37,672 nucleotides of DNA from Escherichia coli (GTDB lineage Bacteria; Pseudomonadota; Gammaproteobacteria; Enterobacterales; Enterobacteriaceae): NCBI RefSeq assembly GCF_051903065.1, contig NZ_CP178442.1; one strand, written 5' to 3'. Positions 6,789 through 7,488 of the stretch are shown here, piece after piece (position 1 is the first letter of the stretch; each line of letters begins with the position of its first letter). The position numbers were made by a program, and so were the translations under genes. The notes below the pieces were generated by a model. That model ran no database searches. It was not told the DNA's origin and saw only the letters and a program-made list of their open reading frames with translations.

Positions 6789-7455
6789 GTTTTCTCCACG
6801 CCTGGCTGATGCCGGTGCTTCGGTTTTCTGGCGAATGGACCATGATGCCGACTATGGCGTGCTGAATGATATTGCCAGAGGGCAATCAGATCCCCGAAAA
6901 ATAGTCCTTCAGTGGGACGAAATGATCCGGACCGCTGGCTCCCTGAAGCTGGGCAAAGTACAGGTTTCAGTGCTGGTCCGTTCATTGCTGAAAAGTGAAC
7001 GTCCTTCCGGACTGACTCAGGCAATCATTGAAGTGGGGCGCATCAACAAAACGCTGTATCTGCTTAATTATATTGATGATGAAGATTACCGCCGGCGCAT
7101 TCTGACCCAGCTTAATCGGGGAGAAAGTCGCCATGCCGTTGCCAGAGCCATCTGTCACGGTCAAAAAGGTGAGATAAGAAAACGATATACCGACGGTCAG
7201 GAAGATCAACTGGGCACACTGGGGCTGGTCACTAACGCCGTCGTGTTATGGAACACTATTTATATGCAGGCAGCCCTGGATCATCTCCGGGCGCAGGGTG
7301 AAACACTGAATGATGAAGATATCGCACGCCTCTCCCCGCTTTGCCACGGACATATCAATATGCTCGGCCATTATTCCTTCACGCTGGCAGAACTGGTGAC
7401 CAAAGGACATCTGAGACCATTAAAAGAGGCGTCAGAGGCAGAAAACGTTGCTTAA
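6789..7455 (+). pseudogene. tnpA: 3' remnant of a Tn3-family (Tn1/2/3-like) transposase gene tnpA, truncated by IS26
   Basis: Product ...VSVLVRSLLKSERPSGLTQAIIEVGRINKTLYLLNYIDDEDYRRRILTQLNRGESRHAVARAICHGQKGEIRKRY...LAELVTKGHLRPLKEASEAENVA is the C-terminus of Tn3-type TnpA; the ORF-track start (6742) lies inside IS26 and is not a real start. Confidence 0.85.
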
Positions 7456-7488
7456 CGTGAGTTTTCGTTCCACTGAGCGTCAGACCCC
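7451..7488 (+). repeat. 38-bp terminal inverted repeat of a Tn3-family transposon (tnpA-proximal end)
   Basis: cttaacgtgagttttcgttccactgagcgtcagacccc is the reverse complement of the Tn3 IR GGGGTCTGACGCTCAGTGGAACGAAAACTCACGTTAAG; it overlaps the tnpA stop as in Tn3. Confidence 0.85.

What the first reader, a model, noticed from the sequence alone, without database searches (positions are those of the whole stretch)
6789..7488. Tn3-family transposon remnant abutting IS26: evidence of nested insertion history
Only the last about 220 codons of a Tn3-type tnpA and the 38-bp terminal IR remain, cut off precisely at the right IR of IS26 copy 2. This implies an earlier Tn1/2/3-like insertion next to the recombinase gene, later targeted and partly deleted by IS26. 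The original element probably carried other cargo (for example blaTEM) that has been lost.
Basis: partly seen in the sequence, partly recalled or inferred. Interest (0 to 1): 0.4.

Follow-up and report, generated by a model that had tools for sequence, protein, structure and literature searches.

The report
IS26-truncated Tn2-type transposon end, IncX4 plasmid
This is a dead 700-bp end of a common ampicillin-resistance transposon, cut by the insertion sequence IS26, in a published pig-farm cfr resistance plasmid (pSD11 type); it is real but ordinary, and the cut point is a widely shared scar rather than one unique to this plasmid.

Summary
Window 6789-7488 is the last 700 bp of a Tn1/2/3-group transposon: 221 tnpA codons, the stop codon and a perfect 38-bp inverted repeat (IR). 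It lies between the right end of IS26 copy 2 (6788) and IncX4 backbone (7489), 45 bp upstream of a tyrosine recombinase gene. The window is the published cfr plasmid pSD11, differing at 5 bases.

- The IR/backbone join is a true transposition junction, because uninterrupted IncX4 relatives resume exactly at 7489.
- The IS26/tnpA breakpoint is not specific to this plasmid. The same IS26 + 700 bp + IR module, with 0 mismatches in the 700 bp of ten examined copies, occurs in about 20 other replicons with seven different flanks beyond the IR.
- The reciprocal half, carrying the same 8-bp GTTTTCTC, sits in blaCTX-M plasmids.
- p727A3-62K-cfr shows the remnant swapping flanks by a crossover with pNT1N31-93k.

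So the breakpoint is probably an inherited junction placed onto a resident Tn end, not a fresh IS26 attack here. The cfr unit (2,365 bp) joined later; pEC3-5 lacks it. No intact ancestor was found, so lost blaTEM cargo is unproven. Already known; low interest.

The parts
6789..7488 (+). Remnant of a Tn1/2/3-group (probably Tn2) transposon: its terminal 700 bp at the tnpA end
   Evidence: 100% identical to Tn3-like elements in thousands of plasmids. 0 mismatches to the same module in ten other loci.
6790..7455 (+). 3' end of tnpA: 221 codons plus the stop codon; non-functional fragment
   Evidence: Pfam DDE_Tnp_Tn3 profile positions 195-389 of 389, E = 1.1e-71; reading frame.
7451..7488 (-). 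38-bp terminal inverted repeat of the transposon, overlapping the last 5 bases of tnpA
   Evidence: 38/38 match to the Tn3 IR; 0.00 expected by chance.
7489..7493 (.). TAATT: first 5 backbone bases, the surviving copy of the presumed 5-bp target duplication
   Evidence: The uninterrupted plasmid L005 reads ...GGTCA|TAATTGCTGAC at this point. The other copy is deleted, so the duplication itself cannot be shown.
5969..6788 (+). IS26 copy 2 (G184N variant, IS26-v1), whose right IR abuts the remnant
   Evidence: 820 bp with 14-bp IRs; DDE_Tnp_IS240; AA at IS positions 613-614, window 6581-6582. Flanks TTTTTGAA and GTTTTCTC, so no 8-bp duplication.
4424..5968 (-). 1,545-bp cfr segment (cfr at 4843-5901, minus strand); with one IS26 it forms a 2,365-bp translocatable unit
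   Evidence: ORF; cfr annotation. pEC3-5 lacks exactly 2,365 bp. A 2,365-bp IS26-cfr circle was detected by PCR in PMC9493366.
3604..4423 (+). IS26 copy 1, in direct orientation; its left end marks the backbone deletion breakpoint
   Evidence: One synonymous difference from copy 2, at IS position 459 (window 4062). Left flank AGCAATCC corresponds to L005 4562.
3032..3603 (-). Backbone gene truncated at its 5' end by the IS26-associated deletion; RefSeq calls it 'malate dehydrogenase'
   Evidence: Pfam DpnII-MboI restriction-enzyme domain, E = 1.7e-49. The full 264-aa version is in L005. L005 4563-6000 (1,438 bp) is missing from the window.
7534..8358 (+). IncX4 tyrosine recombinase gene, 45 bp downstream of the transposon IR
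   Evidence: Pfam Phage_integrase, E = 3.4e-15; annotated tyrosine-type recombinase/integrase.

Best explanation
The 700 bp are an inert relic of a Tn2-type (Tn3-family) transposon, and the present structure arose in three steps.

1. Shown: a transposon end was joined to the IncX4 backbone by transposition, 45 bp upstream of the recombinase gene. The IR terminus abuts the backbone with no base lost.

2. Structure shown, route inferred: everything beyond transposon position 700 was lost. That means at least 4.25 kb if the element was Tn2-sized, the other target-duplication copy, and 1,438 bp of backbone. One IS26 was left, which is the state of pEC3-5. The most likely route is import rather than a fresh IS26 attack. 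A circulating IS26-delta-tnpA(700)-IR module would have entered by IS26 cointegrate formation at backbone position L005 4562/4563. A crossover between its 700 bp and the end of a resident transposon then deleted all the DNA in between. This gives exactly the observed structure and explains the absence of 8-bp duplications.

3. Structure shown, and the circular intermediate is published: a 2,365-bp IS26-cfr translocatable unit joined next to that IS26, giving IS26-cfr-IS26.

Today the remnant encodes nothing functional. It serves as 700 bp of portable homology to the very common Tn2, through which the plasmid recombines with other replicons, as happened in p727A3-62K-cfr.
For: Anatomy and exact junctions.
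True tnpA C-terminus.
Uninterrupted backbone (L005) resumes at 7489, and 1,438 bp are missing.
Single-IS26 relative pEC3-5 differs by 2,365 bp, which is 820 + 1,545.
Identical IS26|tnpA junction in about 22 PLSDB records and 12 or more further E. coli replicons, including a chromosome.
Seven different flanks beyond the IR, with 0 mismatches in the 700 bp.
Reciprocal junction tnpA...GTTTTCTC|IS26 contiguous in at least 9 plasmids, linked to two different ISEcp1-blaCTX-M insertions.
Canonical IS26 in every complete copy outside the pSD11 family and in every reciprocal copy, but G184N IS26 in the IncX4 family, so one conversion under import against many under export.
Direct example of flank exchange by a crossover in the remnant (p727A3 against pNT1N31-93k).
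Published 2,365-bp IS26-cfr circle: PMC9493366.
Published name 'delta-Tn2' for a cfr-IS26-linked Tn end in pHNEP124 (not checked to be the same 700-bp junction): PMC7823714.
Against: No plasmid with an intact transposon at the TAATT site was found, so the resident element that the import route needs is inferred only. The unsplit ancestor, tnpA::IS26 with both GTTTTCTC flanks, was not seen among the best 40 rows. The direction of spread rests on parsimony, not on dating. The early CTX-M-15 plasmid pC15-1a has neither junction in the first 50 kb of its record, which holds its multiresistance region, so there is no date anchor. A single in-situ IS26 adjacent deletion gives the same final structure in fewer steps.
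Confidence: 0.55

Rival explanations
1. In-situ origin. A complete Tn2-like element inserted at TAATT. An IS26 already in this plasmid, either in the backbone at L005 4562/4563 or in tnpA at position 700, then made one intramolecular replicative transposition. That adjacent deletion removed the rest of the transposon and 1,438 bp of backbone. The IS26 + 700 bp module later spread from IncX4 plasmids to other replicons.
For: It is the simplest route to the observed structure. There is an exact IR/backbone junction and no 8-bp duplications around IS26. The G184N IS26 present here is reported to be more active (PMC9019673). Flank exchange by recombination, shown, could also carry the module outward.
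Against: The module is rare in IncX4 (about 8 records, one lineage) but widespread elsewhere. Every complete copy examined outside the pSD11 family carries canonical IS26 although position 613-614 lies only about 200 bp from the junction. The reciprocal junction would have formed only on an excised circle that also carried IncX4 backbone, yet it is found in blaCTX-M IncF and IncR regions.
Confidence: 0.27
2. The end arrived already truncated. Either a Tn2 that already carried IS26 in tnpA transposed as a unit, using transposase supplied in trans. Or the lone IR of an IS26-delta-tnpA module carried out one-ended transposition into the IncX4 backbone. Later IS26 deletions then trimmed the left side.
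For: Seven different exact IR-terminus flanks for one module are what repeated transposase action on that IR would give. Three plasmids share the left context (DUF3883 gene, then IS26) but differ immediately beyond the IR.
Against: No unsplit Tn2::IS26 was seen. The one flank change that could be reconstructed (p727A3) is a reciprocal crossover, not a transposition. One-ended transposition by Tn3-family elements is rare (my own knowledge, not tested here). This route also needs an extra deletion to explain the backbone loss.
Confidence: 0.1
3. Independent recurrence: IS26 hit the same tnpA position in the same orientation separately in the IncX4 plasmid and in the other replicons.
For: None specific. 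It cannot be excluded formally because the 700 bp carry no distinguishing substitutions.
Against: The breakpoint, orientation and 8-bp sequence are identical in about 30 replicons and in the reciprocal half. IS26 has no strong target specificity (my own knowledge).
Confidence: 0.03

Closest known systems
pSD11 (KM212169; Sun et al. 2015, AAC 59:738) and its siblings pEC14cfr, CP069135, CP069136 and pEC3-5
   Same: The window is this plasmid, differing at 5 bases over 37,672 bp. IS26-cfr-IS26 followed by the tnpA remnant and the recombinase gene is the same in all of them. pEC3-5 is the same plasmid without the 2,365-bp cfr unit.
   Different: Nothing structural. The original paper could not be read here, so I could not check how the authors described the remnant or the 1,438-bp backbone deletion.
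IS26-truncated Tn2 in blaCTX-M multiresistance regions of IncF and IncR plasmids (Partridge, Zong and Iredell 2011, AAC 55:4971, 'Recombination in IS26 and Tn2...')
   Same: Same elements and the same kind of evolution by recombination within IS26 and Tn2. pHeBE7, p56 and OW967273 carry the exact reciprocal half of this breakpoint, with the same 8-bp GTTTTCTC.
   Different: Those plasmids keep the tnpR/bla-proximal part of the transposon, whereas the window keeps the IR-proximal 700 bp. pC15-1a itself has neither junction in the first 50 kb of its record, which holds its multiresistance region. The paper was cited from a reference list only and could not be read.
[quoted passage not shown]
   Same: A cfr-IS26 module abutting a Tn2 end. 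There both Tn2 ends and the target duplication survive, showing a resident Tn2 whose interior was replaced.
   Different: Different plasmid group and insertion site. The sequence is not in the collections, so I could not confirm that its breakpoint is at the same position 700.
Complete Tn3-family elements in other IncX4 plasmids: the Tn1331-like element of pJEG012 and the blaTEM-10 transposon of the MS 69-1 plasmid
   Same: Same intergenic region upstream of the same recombinase gene, in the same orientation. The pJEG012 element has an intact TAATT/TAATT duplication.
   Different: Their insertion points lie 259 and 242 bp further from the gene, and they differ at 4 and 13 of the 700 bases. They are independent insertions, not the ancestor of this remnant.

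Membership tests
Tn3-family transposon, Tn1/Tn2/Tn3 group | 38-bp terminal inverted repeat | tested here: met
   38/38 match at 7451-7488; 0.00 expected by chance.
Tn3-family transposon, Tn1/Tn2/Tn3 group | TnpA with the Tn3-type DDE domain | tested here: met
   PF01526, E = 1.1e-71, but only profile positions 195-389 of 389. The C-terminal 221 residues are present and the rest is absent.
Tn3-family transposon, Tn1/Tn2/Tn3 group | Second IR, tnpR, res site and passenger gene (a complete, mobile element) | tested here: not met
   There is only one IR in the window and no further Tn sequence beyond 6789. This is a remnant, not a functional member.
Tn3-family transposon, Tn1/Tn2/Tn3 group | 5-bp target-site duplication | tested here: inconclusive
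   Only the right-hand TAATT survives; the left side is deleted. No relative has the predicted left junction.
Tn2 specifically, as opposed to Tn1 or Tn3 | Sequence identity to the Tn2 reference (AY123253) rather than Tn1 (L27758) or Tn3 (V00613) | not testable with these tools
   Reference records are not held. Indirect evidence only: 4 mismatches to the Tn1331-like element of pJEG012, 13 to the MS 69-1 element, and 0 to thousands of plasmids. A cfr-IS26-linked Tn end is called delta-Tn2 in PMC7823714. The reciprocal half lies in ISEcp1-blaCTX-M structures; an ISEcp1-blaCTX-M-15 unit nested in Tn2 is described in PMC4807372.
IS26 (IS6 family) | 820 bp, 14-bp terminal IRs and a single DDE transposase | tested here: met
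IS26 (IS6 family) | 8-bp target duplication flanking a simple insertion | tested here: not met
   Flanks are AGCAATCC/CTCTAGAG for copy 1 and TTTTTGAA/GTTTTCTC for copy 2. This is as expected after a deletion and after incorporation of a translocatable unit.
IS26-v1 (G184N variant) | Asn at Tnp26 residue 184 (AA instead of GG at IS positions 613-614) | tested here: met
   Both copies have it. Enhanced activity is reported in PMC9019673, citing Pong et al. 2019.
IS26 pseudo-compound transposon / translocatable unit (IS26-cfr-IS26) | Two directly oriented IS26 bracketing a passenger, and a relative that differs by exactly one IS26 plus the passenger | tested here: met
   Direct orientation. pEC3-5 is smaller by 2,365 bp, which is 820 + 1,545. 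The circular form has been shown by PCR in PMC9493366.

The most novel reading that the evidence does not exclude
The lone Tn2 IR next to IS26 may not be inert. With TnpA supplied in trans by co-resident Tn2 copies, it could still be used for one-ended transposition or adjacent rearrangements. That would account for some of the seven exact IR-terminus flanks of one otherwise invariant module. A related possibility concerns the 260 bp upstream of the IncX4 recombinase gene. This region may be a preferred, orientation-biased landing site for Tn3-family elements, since three independent insertions all point tnpA toward the gene.
Probability: 0.1. Interest if true: 0.4.

Novelty: already known. 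Interest (0 to 1): 0.12.

Why it matters
It matters little as a discovery. The plasmid is published, and IS26-truncated Tn2 ends are among the commonest scars in enterobacterial resistance plasmids.

The practical lesson concerns inference. A transposon remnant abutting an IS is not evidence that the IS struck there. This breakpoint is a shared, circulating junction. The remnant's real present-day role is as 700 bp of homology to the very common Tn2, which lets a small cfr plasmid recombine with other replicons, as it did with a pNT1N31-93k-like segment carrying tet(M) to produce p727A3-62K-cfr. That is relevant for tracking how cfr (phenicol, linezolid and pleuromutilin resistance) becomes linked to other resistance genes on farms.

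Tried and rejected
1. p727A3-62K-cfr's longer (1,338-bp) remnant at the same TAATT junction first looked like proof that the IncX4 site once held a longer transposon. Rejected. The 1,338-bp piece and the flank GATAATGCCCG both come from a pNT1N31-93k-like donor, so it is a reciprocal crossover product.

2. The complete Tn3-family elements in pJEG012 and the MS 69-1 plasmid were considered as the intact ancestor. Rejected. They lie 259 and 242 bp away and differ in sequence.

3. pGXEC6 and pGXEC3 were considered as an earlier state. Rejected. Their remnant stops at the tnpA stop codon with the IR lost, followed by a 179-bp duplicated backbone stretch (96.6% identical) from another IncX4 lineage, so they are secondary hybrids.

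4. A synthetic left-junction query for an intact Tn at TAATT found 0 records in PLSDB, and nothing in 5,426 E. coli genomes had a longer Tn at this junction.

5. A search for the unsplit tnpA::IS26 found only stitched three-piece matches among the best 40 rows. It could still be hidden among the 441 records with at least 80% coverage.

6. H297's apparent 23-bp extension beyond the IR was spurious; its flank is unrelated.

7. Typing against Tn1, Tn2 and Tn3 references was not possible: R1 (KY749247) and pHNEP124 (MT667260) are not held.

8. pC15-1a as a date anchor for the reciprocal junction failed: neither junction is present in the first 50 kb of its record, which holds its multiresistance region.

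9. The pSD11 paper and Partridge et al. 2011 are not readable here.

10. A promoter scan found no promoter-like or terminator-like site in 6650-7650. One chance-level site in the uninterrupted backbone lies in the deleted part.

Full report
WHAT IS THERE

The window is the 37,672-bp IncX4 cfr plasmid pSD11 (NZ_KM212169.1), reverse-complemented and rotated, with 5 base differences. Around the finding the order is:
- IS26 copy 1: 3604-4423.
- A 1,545-bp segment carrying cfr: 4424-5968, with cfr at 4843-5901 on the minus strand.
- IS26 copy 2: 5969-6788, in the same orientation as copy 1.
- 700 bp of Tn3-type sequence: 6789-7488.
- IncX4 backbone from 7489, with a tyrosine recombinase gene at 7534-8358.

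The 700 bp hold the last 221 codons of tnpA, with the stop at 7453-7455, and a 38-bp IR at 7451-7488. The IR matches the Tn3 IR 38/38, against 0.00 matches expected by chance. The fragment is 100% identical to Tn3-like elements in thousands of plasmids. Its translation matches the C-terminal half of Pfam DDE_Tnp_Tn3, profile positions 195-389 of 389, E = 1.1e-71.

THE RIGHT-HAND JUNCTION IS A REAL TRANSPOSITION JUNCTION

In IncX4 plasmids without the insertion, such as NZ_CP023905.1 (locus L005), homology to the window resumes exactly at 7489. L005 reads ...CTCTAGGTCA|TAATTGCTGAC... at that point. The IR terminus is therefore joined to backbone with no base lost. A Tn3-family end arrived here by transposition, 45 bp upstream of the recombinase start codon. 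TAATT is presumably the surviving copy of the 5-bp duplication, but the other copy is gone, so this cannot be shown.

THE LOSS IS BIGGER THAN THE TRANSPOSON

Window 1-3603 equals L005 960-4562, and window 7489 onward equals L005 6001 onward. So 1,438 bp of backbone (L005 4563-6000) are missing as well. The lost stretch includes the first roughly 73 codons of a 264-aa gene and a whole 160-aa ORF. RefSeq calls the 264-aa gene 'malate dehydrogenase', but Pfam matches it to a DpnII/MboI restriction-enzyme domain. Neither IS26 copy has an 8-bp duplication. The structure therefore reflects an IS26-associated deletion, not a simple insertion.

ORDER OF EVENTS FOR cfr

pEC3-5 (NZ_CP060983.1, 35,307 bp) is the same plasmid with one IS26 and no cfr. 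The difference is 2,365 bp, which is 820 + 1,545. A 2,365-bp IS26-cfr circle has been detected by PCR (PMC9493366). So cfr sits on a translocatable unit next to an IS26 that already abutted the remnant. Alternatively, pEC3-5 lost the unit; the structure alone cannot say which.

THE IS26/tnpA BREAKPOINT IS NOT PRIVATE TO THIS PLASMID

A 100-bp probe across 6788/6789 matches contiguously and perfectly in about 22 PLSDB records. A dozen or more further E. coli replicons, including one chromosome, carry it too. In ten loci examined, the 700 bp are identical with 0 mismatches. Beyond the IR, however, there are seven different sequences:
- TAATTGCTGAC: the IncX4 plasmids.
- TAAATCAACAG: pKlebA1.
- GTTTCCTGGTG: pMY490-2.
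- ATCTACGACGCC: Shigella STEFF_17 and pKp1764.
- GATAATGCCCG: the second site in p727A3.
- An inverted IS26 fragment: pYUYZPE244-1.
- ATATATTACCG: pTF5_2.

The reciprocal junction, tnpA...GGGATACCAGTTTTCTC|IS26 left end, exists contiguously in at least nine plasmids. In pHeBE7, p56 and OW967273 it closes Tn structures carrying two different ISEcp1-blaCTX-M insertions. Both halves carry the same 8 bp (GTTTTCTC) against IS26. That is the mark of one original IS26 insertion into tnpA whose halves later separated. The unsplit form was not seen among the best rows.

A SEQUENCE MARKER FOR DIRECTION

All IS26 copies in the pSD11 family have AA at IS positions 613-614 (Gly184Asn). This is the IS26-v1 variant, reported to have raised activity (PMC9019673 citing Pong et al. 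2019). Every complete module copy examined outside the pSD11 family, and every reciprocal copy, has canonical GG. These positions lie about 200 bp from the junction. Import into IncX4 needs one IS26 conversion, for example through recombination with the incoming IS26-v1-cfr unit. Export from IncX4 would need a conversion in every recipient lineage. The window's copy 1 is itself a mosaic, with canonical G at position 459 and variant AA at 613-614, so IS26 copies here have been exchanging sequence.

A WORKED EXAMPLE OF HOW FLANKS CHANGE

p727A3-62K-cfr has a 1,338-bp remnant at the IncX4 TAATT junction, and elsewhere IS26-cfr-IS26 followed by the 700-bp remnant flanked by GATAATGCCCG. pNT1N31-93k is the published relative of its tet(M) segment. 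It carries exactly that 1,338-bp remnant, with the same inner boundary, and its IR is flanked by GATAATGCCCG. This is the reciprocal product of a crossover within the shared transposon end. It shows two things. First, the longer remnant in p727A3 is not a relic of an earlier IncX4 state. Second, recombination in these 700 bp really does move the module onto new flanks.

BEST EXPLANATION (confidence about 0.55)

A Tn2-type element transposed into the IncX4 backbone at TAATT. A circulating IS26-delta-tnpA(700) module then entered by IS26 cointegrate formation at L005 4562/4563. A crossover between its 700 bp and the resident transposon end resolved the cointegrate. That removed the donor DNA, 1,438 bp of backbone and the rest of the transposon. 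The geometry gives exactly A-IS26-delta-tnpA-IR-C with no duplications. The cfr unit joined afterwards.

It is simpler mechanically, but fits the distribution, the reciprocal junction and the IS26 variant pattern less well. Delivery of an already truncated end, either as Tn2::IS26 moved in trans or by one-ended transposition, is possible (about 0.1). Independent recurrence is very unlikely (about 0.03).

WHAT COULD NOT BE SHOWN

- No relative has an intact element at this site, so the lost cargo (blaTEM or other) is unknown.
- Tn1, Tn2 and Tn3 references were unavailable, so 'Tn2' rests on indirect evidence: plus naming in PMC7823714 and PMC4807372.
- pC15-1a has neither junction in the first 50 kb of its record, which holds its multiresistance region, so the breakpoint has no date anchor.
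- The complete Tn3-family elements in pJEG012 and the MS 69-1 plasmid are separate insertions 259 and 242 bp further upstream.

VERDICT

The finding is real, precisely described and ordinary. The plasmid and the tnpA-IS26-cfr-IS26 arrangement are published, and IS26-cut Tn2 ends are commonplace. The claim that IS26 truncated it in this plasmid is not supported, and the backbone deletion was missed. Novelty: already known. Interest: 0.12.

Noticed in passing
window 4216-4217 and 6581-6582 (IS26 positions 613-614); window 4062 (IS26 copy 1, position 459): Both IS26 copies are the G184N variant (IS26-v1), reported to have enhanced transposase activity. Every complete IS26 examined outside the pSD11 family, beside the same tnpA remnant or at the reciprocal junction, is canonical. 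In this window copy 1 has the canonical G at position 459, which makes it a mosaic; in pSD11 itself both copies are identical.
   Followed up: partly
window 3032-3676 (minus strand); L005 3991-4782: The gene cut by IS26 copy 1 is annotated 'malate dehydrogenase' in RefSeq, but it matches the DpnII/MboI restriction-endonuclease domain (PF18742, E = 1.7e-49). The annotated ORF's start codon lies inside IS26. This looks like a misannotation of a truncated gene.
   Followed up: partly
L005 about 5740-6005 (region upstream of window 7489); L002 9663-9705; L004 5530-5567: Three independent Tn3-family insertions (this remnant, the Tn1331-like element of pJEG012 with a TAATT duplication, and the blaTEM-10 element of the MS 69-1 plasmid) fall within about 260 bp upstream of the IncX4 recombinase gene. 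All have tnpA pointing toward the gene. This may be a landing hot spot or the result of selection on orientation; I did not test it statistically.
   Followed up: partly
L008 (pGXEC6) 5770-6545; window 2838-3016 and 7455: In pGXEC6 and pGXEC3 the tnpA remnant ends at its stop codon and the last 33 bp of the IR are missing. It is followed by a second, 96.6%-identical copy of 179 bp of backbone, then backbone of a different IncX4 lineage (98.2% identical). These plasmids are hybrids of two IncX4 lineages joined at a non-homologous point.
   Followed up: partly
L003 8363-9700, L012 3051-3790, L019 3755-5132: p727A3-62K-cfr arose from a pSD11-type plasmid by a crossover within the 700-bp tnpA remnant with a pNT1N31-93k-like tet(M) segment. 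The two Tn ends exchanged flanks. The paper describing p727A3 does not mention tnpA or Tn3.
   Followed up: yes
window 6742-7455: A 237-aa ORF starts at a TTG inside the right end of IS26 copy 2 and reads straight into the tnpA remnant. No terminator-like site lies between it and the recombinase gene. The only promoter-like site upstream of that gene in the uninterrupted backbone (L005 5912-5939, a chance-level match) is in the deleted part. The recombinase gene may now depend on read-through transcription.
   Followed up: partly
window 16534, 16550, 16564 (also 33431): Of the 5 differences from pSD11, three are clustered within 31 bp (window G against pSD11 A, T and T). This could be a sequencing or assembly difference, or a small recombination patch.
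   Followed up: no
L005 4563-6000 compared with L006 1034-1593: The backbone between the hns-side genes and the recombinase gene varies among IncX4 lineages. It is about 2.0 kb in the L005/pSD11 lineage (restriction-enzyme-like gene plus a 160-aa ORF) but only 560 bp in the Salmonella/pJEG012 lineage. The restriction-enzyme-like stretch also occurs at 100% identity in many large IncF E. coli plasmids.
   Followed up: no
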